Below are positions 1,692 to 32,281 of a stretch of 32,281 nucleotides of DNA, one piece after another. The stretch is from Bacteroidia bacterium (GTDB lineage: Bacteria; Bacteroidota; Bacteroidia; Palsa-965). How positions within the stretch are numbered: position 1 is the first letter of the stretch; every line of letters starts with the position of its first letter. Below the pieces are notes generated by a model. It had not been told where the DNA came from. It was given only the letters and a program-made list of their open reading frames with translations, and searched no databases. Position numbers and translations under genes: made by a program. The stretch spans positions 1-32,281 of the forward strand of contig DATHKF010000684.1 in NCBI GenBank assembly GCA_035489505.1, read 5' to 3'.

Positions 1692-1929
1692 GACAGTGTC
1701 TCAGTTTGAACATTTGCTATTTGACACGGCGACACGGCGCATTTTTACGGTATTTCTTATTCTAAGCCCGGGCGCTCACGGCGAGATAACGGTAACTTCA
1801 CTATAGAATGAAAGATTTCCGCTTGGCGGAAATACAATTGGTCTCGCCGTGAACGCGCGGGCTTAGAACGGGTTTTGTGCTTCTTTTAGCGCCGTGTCGC
1901 CGTGTCAAAAAGCAAAGTGAGACACTACC
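1692..1929. mobile_element. MITE-like nested palindromic element, family A copy 1
   Basis: The ends are GACAGTGTCTCAGTTTGAA... and ...GTGAGACACTACC. There is a perfect 20-bp inner inverted repeat, TTGACACGGCGACACGGCGC (1721-1740 / 1889-1908), and a third nested palindrome TTCTAAGCCCGGGCGCTCACGGCGAG. The 8-nt flanks are TAAAAAAC and AAAAAAAC. The interior is ~95% identical to 9699-9901. Confidence 0.6.
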
Positions 1930-6267: not shown

Positions 6268-6348
6268 TGTGCTGATGTGAAAATGTGCTAATTGATCCTT
6301 CGGCAAGCTCAGGACGCGCCTGCGGCAGCAAGGAATTTTTTCTTTTGT

Positions 6349-6418
6349 GTTATTAACCCCGGGTTACGATCCTTCGGATCTCACCCGGGGTTAATAACAT
6401 TCGACCCCTTCAGGGTCG
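6349..6418. other. Nested hairpins downstream of recG
   Basis: GTTATTAACCCCGGGT (6349-6364) pairs perfectly with ACCCGGGGTTAATAAC (6383-6398) and encloses the mini-hairpin GATCC-TTC-GGATC. A second hairpin, CGACCC-cttca-GGGTCG, lies at 6402-6418. No T-run follows. Confidence 0.6.
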
Positions 6419-6507
6419 TGCAATTCACAAAGAAGCAAATGCCGGGACTTTCAAAGTTGCGCGACCGTGAAGGGGGCGAATGTCCCTTGAACGAAGTGAA
6501 AGGGAAA

Positions 6508-6639
6508 AATGATTTGCTAAAATCTTTGTCGACTTCGATACAATTAACTGTTGTCACTTCGAGTGTCCGACGAAGGAGGAGGTATCGAGAAGCGACAACA
6601 GTTAATCACTCAGTCTGACAAAGATTTTAGCAAATCATT
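6508..6639. repeat. Palindromic element, family B copy 1
   Basis: The 110-nt core (6519-6628) is ~96% identical to 18438-18546, and the first 62 nt are identical. The copy-specific outer stem AATGATTTGCT (6508-6518) / AGCAAATCATT (6629-6639) is perfect. The right arm contains the TGA stop (6635-6637) of the DUF2723 gene. Confidence 0.85.
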
Positions 6640-9698: not shown

Positions 9699-9901
9699 GG
9701 CAGTGTCTCACTTTGCTTTTTGACACGGTCCGATAGCAATCGGGAGCGCATTTTTACGGCATTTCTTATTCTAAGCCCAGGCGCTCACGGTGAGATAACG
9801 GTAACGCGCCGTGAGCGCCCGGGCTTAGAACGGGTTTCGTGCTTCTTTTAGCGCCGTGTCACCGTGTCAAAATTATCAAATGTTCAAACTGAGACACTAC
9901 C
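9699..9901. mobile_element. MITE-like nested palindromic element, family A copy 2
   Basis: The ends are GGCAGTGTCTCAC... and ...CAAACTGAGACACTACC. The interior is the same as copy 1 at ~95% identity, but the short and long end types are swapped. The left inner arm is interrupted by the mini-hairpin CCGAT-AGCA-ATCGG (9730-9743). Confidence 0.6.
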
Positions 9902-9940
9902 GGGGAGGGAATACACTCTTTTCGGGAGCCGGCTTTTATT

Positions 9941-12426: not shown

Positions 12427-12556
12427 TTCACCGCAGAGGCGCAGAGTCCATTGTTGGAAGTGAGCAAAGGTCGCGGAGGTTTTGAGATAGTGTAAAATAA
12501 AAAATGGCAGCGAATTTTCGCTGCCATTTTTTATTTCTCTGCGTCTCCGCGGTGAA
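12427..12556. repeat. Palindromic element, family C copy 2, filling the whole convergent gap
   Basis: TTCACCGCAGAGGCGCAGAG (12427-12446) pairs with CTCTGCGTCTCCGCGGTGAA (12537-12556) with 2 mismatches. It starts 1 nt after the pheT TAA and ends 1 nt before the stop of the TPR gene. Confidence 0.8.
12499..12532. terminator. Bidirectional intrinsic terminator
   Basis: AAAAAA-TGGCAGCGAA-tt-TTCGCTGCCA-TTTTTT: a perfect 10-bp stem flanked by A and T runs, between convergent genes. Confidence 0.85.
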
Positions 12557-15920: not shown

Positions 15921-16030
15921 ATTGAAACCGCTTAAGCGGTTGAACCTCCAGTTGTATTCATTGCCGGGGGCTTAAGCCCCCGGCAATAGAAAAGGGCGGG
16001 TTGCCAAAACGGTTTTTAACCGTTTTTTCG
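15921..16030. repeat. Three-hairpin module, family E free copy
   Basis: AACCGCTTAAGCGGTT (15926-15941, perfect palindrome); ATTGCCGGGGG-CTTAAG-CCCCCGGCAAT (15960-15987); AAAACGGTT-ttt-AACCGTTTT (16006-16026). The same three modules, in the same order, occur inside element A3 at 22911-23005. Confidence 0.8.
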
Positions 16031-17180: not shown

Positions 17181-17247
17181 CGTCATCGCGAGGCACGAAG
17201 CGATCCCATCTCTTAAAGAAGGGACTGCTTCGTGCCTCGCAGTGACG
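17181..17247. repeat. Palindromic element, family D copy 1
   Basis: CGTCATCGCGAGGCACGAAGC...GCTTCGTGCCTCGCAGTGACG. The reverse complement aligns with 23063-23132. It ends exactly at the TAA (17248-17250) of the next gene. Confidence 0.75.
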
Positions 17248-18429: not shown

Positions 18430-18554
18430 CAAATTCCAAAATCTTTGTCGACTTCGATACAATTAACTGTTGTCACTTCGAGTGTCCGACGAAGGAGGAC
18501 GTATCGAGAACGACAACGGTTAATCACTCAATCTGACAAAGATTTTGGAATTTG
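18430..18554. repeat. Palindromic element, family B copy 2
   Basis: The core at 18438-18546 is ~96% identical to 6519-6628. The copy-specific outer stem CAAATTCC (18430-18437) / GGAATTTG (18547-18554) is perfect. The element ends 2 nt before the hutU TGA. Confidence 0.85.
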
Positions 18555-18556
18555 AC

Positions 18557-20563
18557 TCAGGAAAGTCCGTCGAGCAACGAATCATCCACCAAATTCGGCA
18601 TCGTCACTTTCAACCCCGGCGTACGTTTCATTTCGCGTTCCGCAGTGAACATCGCTTCTTTATTCCGCGCCCAGCTTCTGCGTGCAATTCCGTTGTTCAC
18701 ATCCCAGAACAACATCGATTGCAAACGACGTTCAGAATCGTCACTGCCATCGAGCACCATTCCGAATCCTCCGTTGATCACTTCGCCCCAGCCAACACCG
18801 CCACCGTTGTGCAGTGAAATCCATGTGGCGCCGCGGAAGCCGTCACCGACAAAATTCTGCACCGCCATATCGGCAGTGAACTGTGAGCCGTCATAAATAT
18901 TCGACGTTTCGCGGTACGGCGAATCTGTTCCGGAAACGTCGTGGTGATCGCGGCCGAGAACAACGGGTGCGGAAACTTTTCCGGATGCAATAGCTGTATT
19001 CATGGCTGAAGCAATACGAATGCGTGCTTCTGCATCGGCGTACAAGATGCGCGCCTGCGATCCGACAACAAGATTATTTTTCATCGCGTCCTGGATCCAG
19101 ATGATATTATCGCTCAGCTGCTGCTTGATTTCTGCAGGAGCATGTTTGTACATGTCTTCGAGAACTTCGATCGCAATCGCATCGGTTACTGCAAGGTCTT
19201 TCGCATCGCCGGAAGTACACACCCAGCGGAACGGACCGAATCCGTAATCGAAACACATCGGGCCGAGAATATCCTGAACGTATGATGGATATTTAAACGT
19301 ACCGTCTTCGTTCTTGATATTGGCACCCGCGCGCGAAGCTTCCAGCAGAAACGCATTTCCGTAATCGAAGAAATACATGCCCTCTGCAGCAAGTTTGTTT
19401 ATCGCTTCGGCATGACGGCGCAGCGAAGAACGCACTGCGTCGCCAAATTTCATTGGGTTTTCCGACATGAGCTGATTGGATTCCTCCAGCGAATATCCAA
19501 CCGGGTAATATCCTCCGGCCCATGGATTGTGCAGCGAAGTCTGATCGGTACCCAAATCAACTTTGATTTTTTCTTCCACGAGTTTTTCCCAGAGATCAAC
19601 TACGTTGCCCTGGTAAGCGAGCGAAACAGCTTCTTTTCCGGCACGCGCTTTTTTGATCCGCGCAACCAGTTCGTTGAGATCGCTGTACGATTCATCAACC
19701 CATCCTTGCGAATGACGTGTTTGCGTTGCTTTCGGATTGATCTCCGCAACAACTGCAACCAGCCCGGCAATTTTTCCGGCCTTCGGCTGAGCGCCACTCA
19801 TTCCGCCTAACCCACACGTCACAAATAATTTTCCACGGCGATCTTCTTCGCTCGTCGAAATTTTTCGTGCGGCATTCATCACTGTAATTGTTGTGCCGTG
19901 CACAATTCCCTGCGGACCGATGTACATGAACGAGCCCGCGGTCATTTGTCCGTATTGTGTTACGCCAAGCGCATTGAATTTTTCCCAATCATCAGGTTTG
20001 GAATAATTCGGGATCATCATACCGTTGGTGATCACCACGCGTGGAGAATCTTTGTGCGAAGGAAATAATCCAAGCGGGTGACCGGAATACATCACGAGTG
20101 TTTGCCCGTCGGTCATTGTGGCGAGATACTGCATCGTGAGCAGGTACTGCGCCCAGTTCTGAAAAACCGCGCCGTTACCACCGTACGTAATCAATTCATC
20201 CGGGTGCTGTGCTACTGCGTGATCGAGATTGTTCGACAGCATGTGCATGATTGCAGCGGCCTGTATGCATTGGTACGGGTAATCGTGAATCGGTCGTGCG
20301 TAAATTTTATACCCGGGACGAAACCGGTACATGTAGATCCGGCCGAAAGTTTTTAGTTCTGCTGCGAATTCTTTGGCGAGGACTGGATGATGTTCCGCAG
20401 GAAAATAACGCAGGGCATTGCGGATGGCCAATTTCTTTTCAGCTGCGGAAAGAATATCTTTTCGTTTGGGCGCATGATTGAGCGCAGGATCAAACGACTT
20501 TGCAGCAGGAAGTTTTTCCGGGATCCCGGAGAGGATATGTTTACGAAACTCGTCGCGATGCAT
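18557..20563 (-). CDS. hutU: Urocanate hydratase
   Basis: 668-aa long-form urocanase with collinear conserved blocks (GGNGAVFQNWAQY, TCGLGGMSGAQP, GVGWGEVINGGFG). Confidence 0.96.
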   Translation of the reverse strand: MHRDEFRKHILSGIPEKLPAAKSFDPALNHAPKRKDILSAAEKKLAIRNALRYFPAEHHPVLAKEFAAELKTFGRIYMYRFRPGYKIYARPIHDYPYQCIQAAAIMHMLSNNLDHAVAQHPDELITYGGNGAVFQNWAQYLLTMQYLATMTDGQTLVMYSGHPLGLFPSHKDSPRVVITNGMMIPNYSKPDDWEKFNALGVTQYGQMTAGSFMYIGPQGIVHGTTITVMNAARKISTSEEDRRGKLFVTCGLGGMSGAQPKAGKIAGLVAVVAEINPKATQTRHSQGWVDESYSDLNELVARIKKARAGKEAVSLAYQGNVVDLWEKLVEEKIKVDLGTDQTSLHNPWAGGYYPVGYSLEESNQLMSENPMKFGDAVRSSLRRHAEAINKLAAEGMYFFDYGNAFLLEASRAGANIKNEDGTFKYPSYVQDILGPMCFDYGFGPFRWVCTSGDAKDLAVTDAIAIEVLEDMYKHAPAEIKQQLSDNIIWIQDAMKNNLVVGSQARILYADAEARIRIASAMNTAIASGKVSAPVVLGRDHHDVSGTDSPYRETSNIYDGSQFTADMAVQNFVGDGFRGATWISLHNGGGVGWGEVINGGFGMVLDGSDDSERRLQSMLFWDVNNGIARRSWARNKEAMFTAEREMKRTPGLKVTMPNLVDDSLLDGLS

Positions 20564-22863: not shown

Positions 22864-22880
22864 TCCGGAGTAGGGAGTTC

Positions 22881-23044
22881 GGTAGTGTCTCAGTTTGGCC
22901 ATTGGGGATTTTTGAAAACCGCTTAAGCGGTTGAATGTTTAGGACTGTTCATTGCCGGGGGGCAATGAACCCGGTAAACCAGCTCAACGGTTTTAACCGT
23001 TTCCATGCCACAAATCTTAACTGATTTCAAACTGAGACACTACC
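22881..23044. mobile_element. MITE-like element, family A copy 3, carrying family E cargo
   Basis: Perfect 16-bp TIRs GGTAGTGTCTCAGTTT / AAACTGAGACACTACC, with a perfect 8-bp direct repeat GGGAGTTC immediately outside both ends (22873-22880, 23045-23052). Confidence 0.7.
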
Positions 23045-23062
23045 GGGAGTTCGGAGGCTAGC

Positions 23063-23132
23063 CGTCACTGCGAACGCTCTTCAGCGAAGCAGTCCCCTCT
23101 TTGAAGACGGGATTGCTTCGTTCCTCAATGAC
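23063..23132. repeat. Palindromic element, family D copy 2 (degenerate)
   Basis: CGTCACTGCGA...GAAGCAGTCCCCTCTTTGAAGACGGGATTGCTTCGTTCCTCAATGAC aligns with the reverse complement of 17181-17247. The left arm is disrupted. Confidence 0.6.
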
Positions 23133-23192
23133 ATTGACCCGACTCGCGCCTTCGCACCCCTTACTCCAAACTTATTTTACTACTTTTCACCC

Positions 23193-25829: not shown

Positions 25830-25911
25830 GGTAATGTCTCAGTTTTATTCAGGCCGCGAATTACACGAATTACGCTAATCACTCCTTAGCGTAATTCGTG
25901 TAATTCGCGGC
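25830..25911. repeat. Solo family-A end followed by a perfect 26-bp-stem hairpin
   Basis: GGTAATGTCTCAGTTT (25830-25845) matches the A TIR at 15 of 16 positions. GCCGCGAATTACACGAATTACGCTAA (25853-25878) and TTAGCGTAATTCGTGTAATTCGCGGC (25886-25911) are perfectly complementary, with the loop TCACTCC. Confidence 0.8.
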
Positions 25912-29735: not shown

Positions 29736-29777
29736 AGGAGGTGTGGTTAAGAAGGCTAAAGATATAAAAAATCGTGT

Positions 29778-29970
29778 GCGGGAAGCAGGGAAGAGGGGAC
29801 AGGAAGGCGGGGGTCAGGAGGCAGGAAGACAGGGGTTCAGGAGGCAGGGAAACAGGGATTCAGGGGGGCAGGAAAACAGGGATTCAGGGGGCAGGAAGAC
29901 AGGGGTTCAGGAGGCAGGGAAACAGGGATTCAGGGGGCAGGGAAACAGGAGGTCAGGAGGCAGGAATAGA
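29778..29970 (+). repeat. Purine-rich degenerate tandem array (unit ~22-24 nt, GCAGGRAAACAGGGRTTCAGGRG), upstream flank of the four-helix cassette
   Basis: About 7 units. A 45-nt block is exactly duplicated (29821-29865 = 29891-29935). Contains the G4-type run GGGG-N11-GGG-N5-GGG-N5-GGGGGG at 29831-29867. Confidence 0.9.
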
Positions 29971-30115
29971 GTTCGTTGCGGGGAAGAAAGATGTGGCGGA
30001 TAAAGGCGCGTGGAAACGTTTACAAACGACTACAAACGTTTACATCCGACTACAAGTACTTAAATACCGACTAGTTCCAGGGAAGGCAATTACCATTGCA
30101 AAAAATCAAAAAGTT

Positions 30116-30511
30116 ATGACACAAAACAAAGGTTACCGTTCGTTGATTGCCTACCAGAAATCTTTTAATCTGGCAATGGCCATTTTTCGTTTAACTAAAA
30201 AATTTCCAGCAGAGGAGAGATATGAGTTAACCAGCCAGATCAGAAGATCATCGAGGTCGGTTTGTGCAAACCTGGTTGAGGGCTATCGTAAAAGCATGTA
30301 TCCTAAACTCTTCATGAACAAACTGGTTATTTCAGACGGTGAATGCTCGGAAACGTTGCTATGGCTGGAATTTGCTGTGGCATGTGAATACATTTCTACC
30401 GAGGAATTTACCAAGTACGAATTGCTTATCGAAGAGGTCGGCAAATTGTTGGGGGCGATGATTAAAACGCCGGAGAGATTTGGAGCGATGCGGGGACGGG
30501 TAGCTAAGTAG
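30116..30511 (+). CDS. Four-helix-bundle protein (23S rRNA intervening-sequence protein / Avd-like family)
   Basis: 131 aa. YRSLIAYQKSFNLAMAIFRLTKKFPAEERYELTSQIRRSSRSVCANLVEGY...ECSETLLWLEFA is the canonical TIGR02436/PF05635 pattern. The upstream part of ORF 29774-30511 is only a translated tandem repeat. Confidence 0.88.
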   Translation: MTQNKGYRSLIAYQKSFNLAMAIFRLTKKFPAEERYELTSQIRRSSRSVCANLVEGYRKSMYPKLFMNKLVISDGECSETLLWLEFAVACEYISTEEFTKYELLIEEVGKLLGAMIKTPERFGAMRGRVAK

Positions 30512-30680
30512 GGCGGGTGGCAGGAAAGCAGGGGTTCAGGAGGCAGGGAAATCAGGAGGCAGGAAAAGCAGGTATTCAGGTAGCAGGAAATCAGGTGGCA
30601 GGAAAGCAGGTATTCAGGTAGCAGGGAGATCAGGTGGCAGGAAAGCAGGAGGCAGGTATTCAGGAGTTCAGGATGCAGGA
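30512..30680 (+). repeat. Purine-rich degenerate tandem array, downstream flank of the four-helix cassette
   Basis: About 8 units of GCAGGAAAGCAGGTATTCAGGTA / GCAGGRARATCAGGTG type on the same strand as the upstream array. It shares GGGGTTCAGGAGGCAGGGAA with that array. Confidence 0.9.
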
Positions 30681-30739
30681 ACTCTGAGAGCCGATCTCTC
30701 GCTCCCTGCCTCCTGAACTCCTGAATACCTGCCTCCTGC
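30645..30739. repeat. Long hairpin closing the cassette (29-bp perfect inverted repeat)
   Basis: GCAGGAGGCAGGTATTCAGGAGTTCAGGA (30645-30673) is exactly complementary to 30711-30739, and 5 further bp extend the stem. The right arm overlaps by 1 nt the TAG (30739-30741) of the minus-strand gene. Confidence 0.9.
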
Positions 30740-32281
30740 TACTGCAGCGAATACGCAGTCAGATACTTACCATTGATTCCTCCGATGACGGTCAGCCCAT
30801 TCTCGCCGTTCAGTTTACCAATACTAAACGCTGTTTGGCCCGGCATTGGGAAGCCTTCGGAATCGGCGCCGCCTTTATTGAGCAGGTGAATTTCGGAAGC
30901 CTGCGGACAAGTAATTCCGATGCGGATATCGTTGTCGCCGAAACGGAAAATGGTGGCACGGGTTTGTGCTGGTGATTCAAAACCGAAACTCATCGCCGTG
31001 AGTTTATCCTGGTTGAACACAATGAGTTTTTCCGGGGAAAGGAAAATGTATTCGAGACTTCCATCACCGTTGATGTCGCGGTATTCAAACCACGGTGTTG
31101 CATTGAAATCCAGGAAATGCAAACGTTCAAGTTCATCGGTGAATGTAAGCCGGTATACATTGCCCAATGAATCGGCGCTTACGATCCGGGTCCGCGACAA
31201 ATCTTTTCCCTGCTCCAGGAAAAATTGCGTGACCGGTGTGCCCAGTTGTTCTTTCAGAGTCAAACGTGTTGCTCCTTGCCGGTCGGTAATGTAAGTATGA
31301 CCGCTGCGATCAACAATCACCACGTAATCTTTTCCGGCGACAACCGTATGCTGCACAGGCGCAACAACAATATCACTGGTAACCGGAATTTTCCACCCGT
31401 CAACTTTCACACCTTTCGCAGTGTAGTTGTAGACTTTTTTGTCTTCGCATGCGATAAGTAAACGGTACTCGCGCGTGTTTTCATAATCCATCACGCGAAC
31501 TCCATTGGTGGCCGTTGCAGGAAGTTTTACCGGGAAAATGGAAATCGCATCTCCGTTGCGGTCCATGGCAAACAACGAATCGCGCGTGTTGAATACAATC
31601 TGCAGCTTGCCGTTTTTCAGCACGTCCACCTGTTGCACTTCGCTCATGATGGGCTGGCTCAGTTGTTTCTTCCAGAAAACCGTGCCGGTACTGCTCACGA
31701 GGTAAATTGTATTCGCATCGTCCTGTACAAAAATGTCCAGCCCTTTTGTGTTGTGATTCGTGAGCAACCACGGTTTGCCGCTGAACGTGGTATCGAGTTG
31801 CGTTTCCCAGAGCGAAGCAAAATTTTTCTTGGTCTGCGGATTATGACGAAGGAACGCATTGGTGTAATGAAGGTTTCCTTCGTCGATGTTGTATTGCAAA
31901 ACAATTCCGTCGAACCGTTTCAGCAAATCTGCGTGATGCGTAACATCTGCACGGAAACCGGTTTCAGCGCGCTCTTCGATCAGCCCTTGTGTTTTTGGAA
32001 CAGCTGCGTAAAACGTTACACTGGCTTCGGTAGCCATATTGGTGGCAAAGTCGGCGTAGCTGCGGTCTTTGCGCAGGGTACGTCCAAATTCTGCGGCAAT
32101 GATAAACGCGCGCACAGTATTTTCATCCGTTCCAAAAATTACGTAGTGACTGGTGATGGCATAAAACGCTTCGCGAAACTCGCTGAACAAGCCGCCGAAT
32201 GTAGCAGGAAGCATTTCCGGAACGGGTACCGAACGAACGAGAACTCCGGTGGAATCAAATGGCGGTGCAACTGATCCGGTA
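30739..32281 (-). CDS. Large hypothetical protein with a beta-propeller-like C-terminal region, 5'-truncated by the window edge
   Basis: The frame stays open from 32214 to the window end (...TGSVAPPFDSTGVLVRSVPVPEMLPATF...). It has repeated beta-strand blades and an FG-GAP-like loop DINGDGSLEYIF. I am not confident of the family; it may be DUF3352-like. Confidence 0.7.
   Translation of the reverse strand, partial: TGSVAPPFDSTGVLVRSVPVPEMLPATFGGLFSEFREAFYAITSHYVIFGTDENTVRAFIIAAEFGRTLRKDRSYADFATNMATEASVTFYAAVPKTQGLIEERAETGFRADVTHHADLLKRFDGIVLQYNIDEGNLHYTNAFLRHNPQTKKNFASLWETQLDTTFSGKPWLLTNHNTKGLDIFVQDDANTIYLVSSTGTVFWKKQLSQPIMSEVQQVDVLKNGKLQIVFNTRDSLFAMDRNGDAISIFPVKLPATATNGVRVMDYENTREYRLLIACEDKKVYNYTAKGVKVDGWKIPVTSDIVVAPVQHTVVAGKDYVVIVDRSGHTYITDRQGATRLTLKEQLGTPVTQFFLEQGKDLSRTRIVSADSLGNVYRLTFTDELERLHFLDFNATPWFEYRDINGDGSLEYIFLSPEKLIVFNQDKLTAMSFGFESPAQTRATIFRFGDNDIRIGITCPQASEIHLLNKGGADSEGFPMPGQTAFSIGKLNGENGLTVIGGINGKYLTAYSLQ

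What the first reader, a model, noticed from the sequence alone, without database searches (positions are those of the whole stretch)
6508..6639. Family B: a 96%-identical 110-nt core enclosed by copy-specific but perfectly self-complementary outer stems
The cores at 6519-6628 and 18438-18546 differ by 3 substitutions and 1 indel, and their first 62 nt are identical. Each core folds as AAAATCTTTGTC...GACAAAGATTTT with the inner stem ATTAACTGTTGTC / GACAAC(A/G)GTTAAT. Immediately outside the core, the two copies share no sequence, yet each is a perfect stem: AATGATTTGCT / AGCAAATCATT (11 bp) at copy 1 and CAAATTCC / GGAATTTG (8 bp) at copy 2. There are two possible readings. The structure may be under selection, making this a structured RNA or DNA element with covarying closing helices. 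Alternatively, the core may insert into the loop of pre-existing gene-end hairpins. Both copies sit at the 3' end of minus-strand genes; the DUF2723 stop lies inside the outer stem, and the hutU stop is 2 nt away.
Basis: partly seen in the sequence, partly recalled or inferred. Interest (0 to 1): 0.66.

Follow-up and report, generated by a model that had tools for sequence, protein, structure and literature searches.

The report
Mobile hairpin repeat with mirrored flanks
A 110-base hairpin-forming repeat sits just after the stop codons of two unrelated genes in an uncultured Bacteroidia genome, and at each site the DNA on one side of it is a reverse-complement copy of the DNA on the other, which looks like an unusual insertion scar and not a conserved RNA helix.

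Summary
There are two copies of a 110/109-nt core, differing by 3 substitutions and 1 indel. Each has a 12-bp terminal inverted repeat and a 13-bp inner stem. Each is enclosed by unrelated but perfectly complementary flanks of 11 bp and 8 bp.

The "covarying closing helix of a structured RNA" reading is not supported. The outer arms are flank DNA, not part of the repeat. At copy 1 the gene-side arm holds the last codon and stop codon of the DUF2723 gene, at the same position as in relatives. Relatives have neither the core nor the opposite arm.

The window is a whole contig of a Bacteroidia MAG. About 64 kb of the same genome, seen in four assemblies, holds only these two copies. Public genome, metagenome, viral, plasmid, phage, protein and Rfam searches found no others.

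The "insertion into pre-existing gene-end hairpins" reading is possible but weak. The reconstructed empty sites would be loop-less AT-rich palindromes that barely fold and share no consensus.

My best explanation (about 45%) is a MITE-like hairpin element whose paired ends primed fold-back (template-switch) DNA synthesis. That synthesis copied 8-11 nt of the gene-side flank in reverse complement. With two copies and no empty allele, this stays unproven.

The parts
6508..6639 (.). Copy 1, whole hairpin (outer arms plus core), between the convergent recG (+) and DUF2723 (-) genes
   Evidence: 23-nt perfect inverted arms (I19). Fold -62.9 kcal/mol, z -12.4.
6508..6518 (.). Copy 1 gene-distal outer arm AATGATTTGCT. 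Inferred to be the newly made reverse-complement copy of 6629-6639.
   Evidence: Perfect complement of 6629-6639. Nothing corresponding in the relatives, where the two genes lie 1-12 nt apart.
6519..6628 (.). Copy 1 core (the dispersed repeat), 110 nt
   Evidence: 96% identical to 18438-18546. CM R1 scores 144 bits.
6519..6530 (.). Copy 1 left terminal inverted repeat AAAATCTTTGTC
6543..6555 (.). Copy 1 inner stem, 5' arm ATTAACTGTTGTC
   Evidence: 13-bp perfect pairing with 6594-6606.
6594..6606 (.). Copy 1 inner stem, 3' arm GACAACAGTTAAT
6617..6628 (.). Copy 1 right terminal inverted repeat GACAAAGATTTT
6629..6639 (.). Copy 1 gene-proximal outer arm AGCAAATCATT. This is the ancestral 3' end of the DUF2723 gene: last 2 nt of the final Glu codon, the stop at 6635-6637, and 6 nt of 3' flank.
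   Evidence: The ORF ends at 6635. Orthologues end at the same residue and position. On the gene strand, GAATGATTTGCT aligns with GAATAATTGGTT of L008.
18430..18554 (.). Copy 2, whole hairpin, between the hutU stop and the start of the next minus-strand gene
   Evidence: 20-nt perfect inverted arms (I21). Fold -53.7 kcal/mol, z -9.6.
18430..18437 (.). Copy 2 gene-distal outer arm CAAATTCC
   Evidence: Perfect complement of 18547-18554.
18438..18546 (.). Copy 2 core, 109 nt
18438..18449 (.). Copy 2 left terminal inverted repeat
18462..18474 (.). Copy 2 inner stem, 5' arm
18512..18524 (.). Copy 2 inner stem, 3' arm GACAACGGTTAAT (one G.T)
18535..18546 (.). Copy 2 right terminal inverted repeat
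18547..18554 (.). Copy 2 gene-proximal outer arm GGAATTTG, 2 nt from the hutU stop codon (18557-18559)

Best explanation
Family B is a small non-coding, hairpin-forming dispersed repeat. It is MITE-like, with a 12-bp terminal inverted repeat, a 13-bp inner stem and 25-nt-spaced sub-repeats that look like protein-binding sites. It has landed 6 and 10 nt downstream of the stop codons of two unrelated genes.

The copy-specific outer stems are not part of the element and not a selected helix. They are a scar. When the strand carrying [gene-side flank + element] is single-stranded, the two terminal repeats pair. That places the 3' end of the element opposite the gene-side flank. A polymerase then extends that end for 8-11 nt using the flank as template (fold-back priming, or template switching) before synthesis or joining returns to the other side. 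The result is a reverse-complement copy of the gene-side flank on the far side, in place of the usual direct target-site duplication.

Shown: the element is a recent dispersed repeat; the arms are flank DNA; the gene-side arm of copy 1 is ancestral; the far arm is absent from relatives. Inferred: the copying mechanism, its timing (at or soon after insertion) and the direction at copy 2.

The consequence is a 20-23-bp perfect duplex at the base of a very stable hairpin in the 3' UTR of both genes. That hairpin may stabilise, terminate or expose the transcript to processing, but no such function is required to explain the pattern.
For: 1. The core is 96% identical between sites while the arms are unrelated (3 of 8 positions equal). 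All double-sided changes lie in the arms. This fits flank DNA, not drift of a helix.

2. At copy 1 the gene-side arm contains the final GAA codon and the stop. Orthologues at 78-80% identity end at the same residue and position (...IPLE*...VAVE*), and their 3' flank GAATAATTGGTT resembles GAATGATTTGCT. That arm was therefore there first.

3. In those orthologues DUF2723 and recG are 1-12 nt apart, so the far arm has no ancestral counterpart.

4. The hutU orthologue at 89% identity has neither the core nor the palindrome. Its spacer is 114 nt. The window has 244 nt, and 244 minus the 125-nt hairpin is 119.

5. The arms abut the terminal repeats with no loop remnant, are perfect, and differ in length (11 and 8). 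This is expected of polymerase copying, not of a staggered cut.

6. The reconstructed palindromes alone fold at -8.8 and -2.4 kcal/mol, the latter no better than shuffles. Real gene-end hairpins here and in a relative fold at -25.4 and -15.6 kcal/mol. The two half-sites match at 4 of 11 positions, so there is no consensus.

7. The core alone folds as ssDNA (-24.8 and -21.6 kcal/mol) with its 3' end at the flank, which is the geometry fold-back priming needs.

8. Template switching is an established way to create and lengthen perfect inverted repeats in one event (PMC8794818, PMC5941160, abstract of PMC13100816).
Against: There are only two copies, and no empty allele from the same species, so the ancestral state of the far arms is inferred from relatives whose intergenic DNA is too diverged to align.

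The other hairpin-forming MITE family in the same window (Family A) has ordinary direct duplications and no mirrored flanks. The effect is therefore not a general property of hairpins in this genome.

Generic template switching should also tidy up the internal mismatched loops of the hairpin, yet these are identical and uncorrected in both copies.

No described bacterial transposition pathway is known to me to leave inverted flank copies, and exact-phrase literature searches for inverted target (site) or flanking duplications found no such term; the hits were all for "palindromic target site".

The direction of copying at copy 2 is unknown.
Confidence: 0.45

Rival explanations
1. Palindrome or hairpin targeting. 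The element inserts exactly at the centre of pre-existing palindromes at gene ends, as IS1397 and IS110-family elements insert into REP palindromes, so the two arms of the old palindrome now flank it.
For: Both copies lie within 10 nt of a stop codon, where hairpins are common. This genome and its relatives do have gene-end hairpins, including one overlapping the hutU stop in L040 (TGTCAGGAT-CCCA-ATCCTGACA, -15.6 kcal/mol) and a 20-bp one at 12495-12536. Loop-less perfect palindromes of 16-28 bp exist in the window (15926-15941, 15960-15987, 22917-22932) and are enriched over a Markov model. IS elements that target palindromic repeats are documented (PMC3184786, PMC12288879). The inverted flanks are specific to this family, which suits a family-specific target preference.
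Against: The inferred targets would be perfect, loop-less, AT-rich palindromes with no shared consensus (4 of 11 positions). One does not fold at all as a hairpin, so neither sequence-specific nor structure-specific recognition is convincing. At copy 1 the palindrome would have to overlap the last codon and stop of DUF2723, at a junction where relatives have only 1-12 nt between convergent genes. An extra, unexplained event would then be needed to create the far arm before the insertion. No loop nucleotides remain at either site.
Confidence: 0.28
2. Functional structured RNA or 3'-UTR element. The whole 125-132-nt hairpin is a selected RNA, such as an mRNA stabiliser, terminator or processing site, and the closing helix is kept complementary by selection.
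For: The fold is very stable on both strands. Both copies have the same orientation relative to the upstream gene and lie immediately after a stop codon. The single stem substitution is A-U to G.U on the + strand. A U-rich run follows the copy-1 hairpin on the gene strand.
Against: There is no Rfam family. No homologue was found in 185,579 species genomes, JGI metagenomes, or the viral, plasmid and phage sets, and none in relatives at 78-89% protein identity. That is no conservation beyond one species, the opposite of a selected RNA. Replacing 8-11 pairs wholesale while the core changes by 3.6% cannot arise by compensatory substitution. The G.U lies on the strand opposite to the genes; on the gene-sense RNA it is a C.A mismatch. 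There is no U-tract at copy 2.
Confidence: 0.07
3. Longer element with variable tips. The mobile unit is the whole 125-132-nt hairpin, and the two copies come from sub-families with different outermost inverted repeats.
For: Complementarity runs uninterrupted from the shared repeat into the arms. No direct duplication is seen outside the arms either.
Against: At copy 1 one tip would have to supply the final codon and the stop of DUF2723 at exactly the ancestral position, and the displaced original gene end is not found on the far side. The tips are unrelated in sequence and length while the rest is 96% identical.
Confidence: 0.05

Closest known systems
Bacterial MITEs (for example Correia/NEMIS, ERIC/IRU, Nezha; and Family A in this same window)
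   Same: Small (about 110 nt) and non-coding, with perfect terminal inverted repeats. Folds into a long hairpin, is intergenic and close to gene ends, and occurs as near-identical dispersed copies.
   Different: Classical MITEs are flanked by direct target-site duplications (PMC3184786). Family A here shows 7-8-bp direct repeats. Family B has none and instead has reverse-complement flanks of variable length. No cognate transposase or full-length IS with these ends was found.
REP/REPIN elements mobilised by RAYT transposases
   Same: A hairpin of about 100 nt built from inverted halves, extragenic and often between convergent genes, with no target duplication.
   Different: No GTAG/CGTC-type REP head (PMC3733652). 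No RAYT (Y1 transposase) gene among the genes called or Pfam-annotated in about 64 kb. Only two copies seen. REPINs are not reported to have mirrored flanks.
IS1397/ISKpn1 and IS110-family (IS621, ISPpu9) insertion into REP palindromes
   Same: After insertion into a palindrome, the two arms of the palindrome flank the element as inverted repeats.
   Different: Those targets are members of a conserved repeat family with a recognisable consensus (PMC3184786, PMC12288879). Here the two palindromes are unique, unrelated, loop-less and weak. Here the inserted element is 110 nt and has no gene.
Template-switch (quasipalindrome) mutations that create or extend perfect inverted repeats
   Same: A reverse-complement copy of adjacent sequence is made in one step. 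It yields a perfect stem of arbitrary sequence and explains multi-base 'compensatory' change without selection (PMC8794818, PMC5941160).
   Different: Described for correcting or creating short stems in place. It has not been described as a regular accompaniment of a mobile hairpin's insertion, and here the interior mismatches of the hairpin were not corrected.
Integron attC sites
   Same: Imperfect palindromes of 57-141 bp at the 3' ends of genes, recognised by structure and not sequence. The inner stem ends ATTAAC/GTTAAT, faintly like RYYYAAC/GTTRRRY (my own knowledge of attC).
   Different: That motif is internal, not at the element boundaries. The neighbours are large housekeeping genes conserved in synteny with relatives, not cassettes. 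No integrase lies nearby. Not a member.

Membership tests
MITE (DDE-transposase-mobilised) | Short non-coding element | tested here: met
   109-110 nt. All six frames are broken or trivial. No protein hit.
MITE (DDE-transposase-mobilised) | Terminal inverted repeats | tested here: met
   12-bp perfect AAAATCTTTGTC/GACAAAGATTTT in both copies.
MITE (DDE-transposase-mobilised) | Direct target-site duplication of fixed length | tested here: not met
   Flanks are reverse complements, not direct repeats (4 of 11 identical when compared directly), with lengths 11 and 8. There is no direct repeat outside the arms.
MITE (DDE-transposase-mobilised) | Multiple dispersed copies, with empty sites in relatives | tested here: inconclusive
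   Two copies in about 64 kb and none elsewhere. Relatives lack the element at both loci but are 11-22% diverged in protein.
MITE (DDE-transposase-mobilised) | Autonomous IS with the same ends | not testable with these tools
   No transposase in the 64 kb available.
REP/REPIN | REP units with a conserved GTAG/CGTC head, high copy number and an associated RAYT gene | tested here: not met
   The core starts AAAATC and has no such head. Two copies only. No Y1 transposase among the annotated genes. RAYT absence genome-wide is untested.
Known structured RNA family (Rfam) | Match to a curated covariance model | tested here: not met
   No hit at gathering thresholds. In E-value mode only miRNA-precursor models at 15-25 bits against cut-offs of 70-119.
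Selected RNA helix | Compensatory covariation across homologous sequences | tested here: inconclusive
   Five double-sided changes, all in non-homologous flank positions. The 25 core pairs are invariant except one G.U. Two sequences cannot support a covariation test.
Intrinsic terminator | G+C-rich stem-loop followed by a U-tract on the gene strand | tested here: not met
   The scan finds none at either element. Copy 1 has a U-rich run after an AT-rich stem; copy 2 has none.
IS-into-palindrome targeting (IS1397 / IS110 type) | The target is a recognisable palindromic repeat family with a consensus | tested here: not met
   The two inferred palindromes are unique in 64 kb and share 4 of 11 half-site positions.
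Template-switch-generated inverted repeat | One arm ancestral, the other a perfect reverse-complement copy absent from the ancestor | tested here: inconclusive
   Met at copy 1 as far as relatives allow: the gene-side arm is conserved in position and the far arm has no counterpart. Copy 2 is not resolvable. There is no same-species empty allele.
Integron attC | R''/R' core sites at the boundaries, cassette context, and an integrase | tested here: not met
   The boundaries are AAAATC/GATTTT. The neighbours are syntenic housekeeping genes and there is no integrase.

The most novel reading that the evidence does not exclude
Family B reports an insertion pathway whose regular signature is an inverted, not direct, duplication of the target flank. 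One end of a hairpin element is joined or copied first, whether by DNA transposition through a single-strand intermediate or by target-primed copying of a hairpin RNA/ssDNA template. The free 3' end then snaps back on the terminal repeat and copies 8-11 nt of flank before the second junction is sealed. If general, every copy in the genome would carry a unique mirrored flank, and the element would automatically build a 20+-bp perfect duplex at each gene end it enters.
Probability: 0.2. Interest if true: 0.8.

Novelty: new variant of a known kind. Interest (0 to 1): 0.5.

Why it matters
If the mirrored flanks are made by fold-back copying, this would be a natural case in which a mobile hairpin lengthens its own stem with host sequence. 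It would leave an inverted instead of a direct target duplication. That signature is not used by MITE or IS finders and would be misread as covariation by RNA-discovery pipelines.

It also gives a concrete caution. Perfect "compensatory" closing helices around a dispersed repeat can be a mutational scar and need not indicate a selected RNA structure.

If instead the element homes to palindrome centres, it would be a small non-autonomous example of structure-directed or symmetry-directed targeting in Bacteroidota, where such elements are poorly described.

Either way, the element places a hairpin of -52 to -64 kcal/mol directly after the stop codons of a urocanase gene and a DUF2723 gene, which should affect their transcripts.

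Tried and rejected
**Searches for more copies (all negative)**
- Terminal-repeat-pair pattern over 185,579 species genomes: 7 hits, none resembling the core.
- 22-mer over JGI metagenomes: 0 hits.
- Terminal-repeat-pair pattern over metagenomes: 21 hits, none resembling the core.
- 20-mer over viral contigs: 0 hits.
- blastn against plasmids and phages: no match.
- Six-frame peptides of the core against 5.8 billion proteins: nothing.
- blastn and a covariance model over about 250 kb of fetched loci, including 64 kb of the same genome: nothing new.

The metagenome collection evidently does not hold JGI sample 3300020034, which does contain the element.

**Ideas rejected**
- A TA (IS630-like) duplication fits copy 1 trivially (CTAG centre) but not copy 2 (CA...TG).
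- A Tn10-like symmetric target is excluded because the flanks are not direct repeats.
- attC: see the membership test.
- Bridge-RNA-like guide loops are excluded because the loops are identical while the targets differ.
- A tRNA-derived origin: ARAGORN finds no tRNA in the window.
- Homology between the core and the relative's hutU spacer: alignment no better than shuffles.
- A repeat status for the remaining 240 nt of the recG-DUF2723 spacer: unique in the data.
- Assembly artefact: four assemblies agree.

**Not pursued**
An apparent pseudoknot-like cross-pairing of the loop segments (CTTCGATAC with GTATCGAGAAG; GAGTG with CACTC) was judged too short to be significant and was not pursued.

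Full report
**What is there**

The window carries two copies of a 110/109-nt sequence, at 6519-6628 and 18438-18546. They differ by three substitutions and one indel, and their first 62 nt are identical.

Each copy starts with AAAATCTTTGTC and ends with its complement. Each also holds a 13-bp inner stem, ATTAACTGTTGTC/GACAAC(A/G)GTTAAT.

Directly outside the shared sequence the two loci have nothing in common, yet each is perfectly self-complementary:
- copy 1: AATGATTTGCT / AGCAAATCATT, 11 bp;
- copy 2: CAAATTCC / GGAATTTG, 8 bp.

This gives uninterrupted perfect stems of 23 and 20 bp (I19 and I21).

The whole hairpins fold at -62.9 and -53.7 kcal/mol as RNA, with z-scores of -12.4 and -9.6. 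As DNA they fold at -38 and -31.6 kcal/mol.

The stop codon of the DUF2723 gene (6635-6637, minus strand) lies inside the copy-1 outer arm. The hutU stop (18557-18559) is 2 nt from the copy-2 arm.

Chance complementarity of 11 and 8 nt exactly abutting a repeat has a probability of about 4e-12.

**Where the sequence comes from, and whether it is real**

The window is an entire 32,281-bp contig of a third-party-annotated MAG called "Bacteroidia bacterium".

The same organism is present in three other assemblies: ENA ERZ27268082, ENA ERZ27268085 and JGI 3300020034. Their contigs are 99.95-100% identical to the window and carry both copies at the same sites with the same flanks. This excludes an assembly artefact.

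By walking along the 150,580-bp ENA contig I obtained about 64 kb of contiguous genome. blastn and a covariance model built from the two cores (R1) found no third copy there.

**Search for relatives**

The following searches found nothing related:
- Rfam at gathering thresholds. In permissive mode it gave only generic hairpin hits far below threshold.
- Scans of 185,579 species-representative genomes, of the JGI metagenome collection (two patterns) and of viral contigs. The hits were chance matches to the two 11-mers; none resembles the core.
- Plasmid and phage collections.
- Six-frame peptides of the core against 5.8 billion predicted proteins.

The family is thus known only from this species and, so far, from two copies.

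**The arms are flank DNA, and one of them is ancestral**

The cores differ by about 3.6%. The outer arms agree at 3 of 8 comparable positions, which is the chance level. All five double-sided "compensatory" changes lie in the arms, and none lies in the 25 core pairs. Gradual covariation cannot replace a whole helix while the adjacent 110 nt stay nearly identical. The arms are simply the local sequence on either side of a recently dispersed repeat.

At copy 1 the gene-side arm can be dated. Read on the gene strand, the sequence is ...CCG ATG GAA TGA TTTGCT | core | AGCAAATCATT TTTCCC... Orthologous DUF2723 genes at 78-80% identity (L008, L010, L011) end at the same residue and position...CTG GAA TAA in L008 and ...GTG GAG TGA in L010. 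The L008 3' flank GAATAATTGGTT resembles GAATGATTTGCT. So the last codon, the stop and the next few bases predate the element.

In L008 and L011 the convergent recG gene follows after only 12 and 1 nt, so the far arm AGCAAATCATT has no ancestral counterpart. In the window this spacer has grown to 367 nt.

At copy 2, a hutU orthologue at 89% identity (L040/L041) keeps the same downstream gene. It has neither the core (alignment no better than shuffles) nor the palindrome. Its spacer is 114 nt. The window has 244 nt, and 244 minus the 125-nt hairpin is 119.

**Testing the "pre-existing hairpin" reading**

Gene-end hairpins certainly exist in this lineage:
- The L040 hutU gene ends in TGTCAGGAT-CCCA-ATCCTGACA, which overlaps its stop (-15.6 kcal/mol).
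- The window has a 20-bp bidirectional terminator-like hairpin at 12495-12536 (-25.4 kcal/mol).

The sites that Family B would have entered look nothing like these. With the core removed they would be loop-less perfect palindromes, AATGATTTGCTAGCAAATCATT and CAAATTCCGGAATTTG. These fold at -8.8 kcal/mol and -2.4 kcal/mol, and the latter is no better than shuffles.

Their half-sites agree at 4 of 11 positions, so a sequence-specific symmetric target is not evident either.

Loop-less palindromes of 16 bp or more are rare in the window. There are three, all inside another repeat family, although this is more than a Markov model predicts.

At copy 1 the palindrome would also have had to be created first, across the stop codon, by some other event. 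Targeting is therefore possible (I give it about 0.28) but needs more assumptions.

**Preferred mechanism**

The pattern has four features:
- perfect complementarity of arbitrary sequence;
- a start exactly at the element's ends;
- no loop remnant;
- different lengths at the two sites, with one arm ancestral and the other new.

This is what fold-back (template-switch) synthesis produces. In a single strand carrying the gene-side flank and the element, the two terminal repeats pair. The core alone folds at -24.8 and -21.6 kcal/mol as ssDNA. That pairing puts the 3' end of the element opposite the flank, and a few nucleotides of extension write the reverse complement of the flank on the far side.

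Template switching of this kind is well documented. It corrects quasipalindromes, creates perfect stems in one event, and expands inverted repeats (PMC8794818; PMC5941160; abstract of PMC13100816).

I cannot tell whether the copying happened during insertion or later. Two facts argue that it is tied to this family's insertion and is not a general hairpin effect:
- The other hairpin-forming MITE family in the window (Family A; terminal repeat GGTAGTGTCTCAGTTTG) has ordinary 7-8-bp direct duplications, for example GGGAGTTC at 22880-23047.
- The internal mismatched loops of Family B were not "corrected" in either copy.

I found no description of inverted target duplications in the literature library under the exact phrases tried. 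The nearest concept there is the statistical "palindromic target site" model for eukaryotic transposons (PMC2577343).

**Anatomy of the core**

Each half holds two 25-nt-spaced direct sub-repeats: TTGTCGACTTCGA at 6526-6538 and TTGTCACTTCGA at 6551-6562, mirrored imperfectly in the right half (read). This arrangement is typical of multiple protein-binding sites at transposon ends. It supports a DNA-level mobile element over an RNA gene, though that is an inference.

No transposase, recombinase or reverse transcriptase is encoded in the 64 kb examined.

**Function**

Nothing requires a function. The consequence, however, is a very stable hairpin with a 20-23-bp perfect duplex immediately after the stop codons of two genes, in the same orientation relative to both.

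On the gene strand, copy 1 is followed by a U-rich run and copy 2 is not. The terminator scan finds neither.

The single stem substitution is a G.U on the + strand but a C.A mismatch on the gene-sense RNA. This does not favour selection on the mRNA structure.

**Verdict**

The "covarying RNA helix" interpretation is not supported. The "insertion into hairpins" interpretation is a live but weaker rival.

The best-supported reading is a MITE-like mobile hairpin that carries an inverted copy of its gene-side flank, made by fold-back synthesis.

With two copies and no empty allele, confidence is moderate (0.45). The complete genome and the raw reads of the source samples would settle the matter quickly.

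Noticed in passing
window 1695-1929, 9699-9902, 22880-23047: Family A is a different MITE-like repeat with terminal inverted repeats (C)GGTAGTGTCTCAGTTTG...CAAACTGAGACACTACC(G). It is flanked by ordinary direct duplications of 7-8 bp (GGGAGTTC at 22880-23047; AAAAAAC at 1695-1929). It serves as an internal control showing that normal target duplications occur in this genome.
   Followed up: partly
window 15924-16025 and 22909-23010; third copy about 2.2-2.3 kb left of the window start in L036/L043: A three-hairpin module (AACCGCTTAAGCGGTT; ATTGCC...GGCAAT; AAACGGTT..AACCGTTT) recurs three times, once inside a Family A element. Its stems show paired changes between copies: TTCC/GGAA versus GTTC/GAAC outside ATTGCC/GGCAAT, and an outermost A-T versus G-C in the third hairpin. 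One copy has its loop GGGG expanded to the perfect palindrome GGGGGCTTAAGCCCCC. This suggests arm-to-arm copying or selection on structure.
   Followed up: partly
window 6268-6507: The recG-DUF2723 spacer is 367 nt here against 1-12 nt in relatives. Besides Family B it holds 240 nt that are unique in the available data and packed with hairpins, for example TGTTATTAACCCCGGGT...ACCCGGGGTTAATAACA (17-bp stem, 6348-6399) enclosing GATCC-GAA-GGATC. The origin is unknown. Contigs from two other assemblies break at 6320-6332.
   Followed up: partly
window 29792-29977 and 30491-30740: Purine-rich tandem repeats with a 23-nt period (GGGGTTCAGGAGGCAGGAAAACA and variants) lie on both sides of a four-helix-bundle gene (23S_rRNA_IVP/bAvd family; ORF 29774-30511, whose 5' part overlaps the first array). 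The two arrays are partly inverted relative to each other. This is the only region where the assemblies differ by indels, and the gene is called as 245, 232 or 131 aa in different assemblies.
   Followed up: no
window 17181-17247, 23075-23140; a further copy about 1.4 kb right of the window end in L038/L042: Another dispersed hairpin family is built on GTCA(T/C)(T/C)GCGAGGCACGAAGC...GCTTCGTGCCTCGCAGTGAC.
   Followed up: no
window 25853-25911 and 12495-12536: There are two long perfect hairpins. One has a 26-bp stem and 7-nt loop. The other is a 20-bp A-tract/T-tract bidirectional terminator-like hairpin between the convergent pheT and TPR genes.
   Followed up: no
L002 7317-7521 (Flavobacterium sp. 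UW10123, NZ_JBEWQE010000009.1): A cluster of nested hairpins shares short strings with the Family B core: AAATCTTTGTCGA(G)CTTCG, CGACGAAGGAG (twice, inverted) and several CTTTGTC/GACAAAG motifs. The locus was picked up through the terminal-repeat pattern, so part of the match is by construction. The CM score is 18.9 bits. It could be a very distant Bacteroidota relative or chance.
   Followed up: partly
L040 12000-12030 (hutU orthologue, 89% identity): The relative's hutU gene is 5 codons longer and ends in a 9-bp hairpin with a CCCA loop that overlaps its own stop codon (TGTCAGGAT-CCCA-ATCCTGACA, -15.6 kcal/mol).
   Followed up: partly
L004 833-948 (Phycisphaerales MAG, JAKSDK010001423.1): An unrelated long imperfect hairpin happens to share the 12-nt ends AAAATCTTTGTC/GACAAAGATTTT. 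It too has complementary bases just outside them (TTGTG/CACAA). The interior is not similar to Family B.
   Followed up: no
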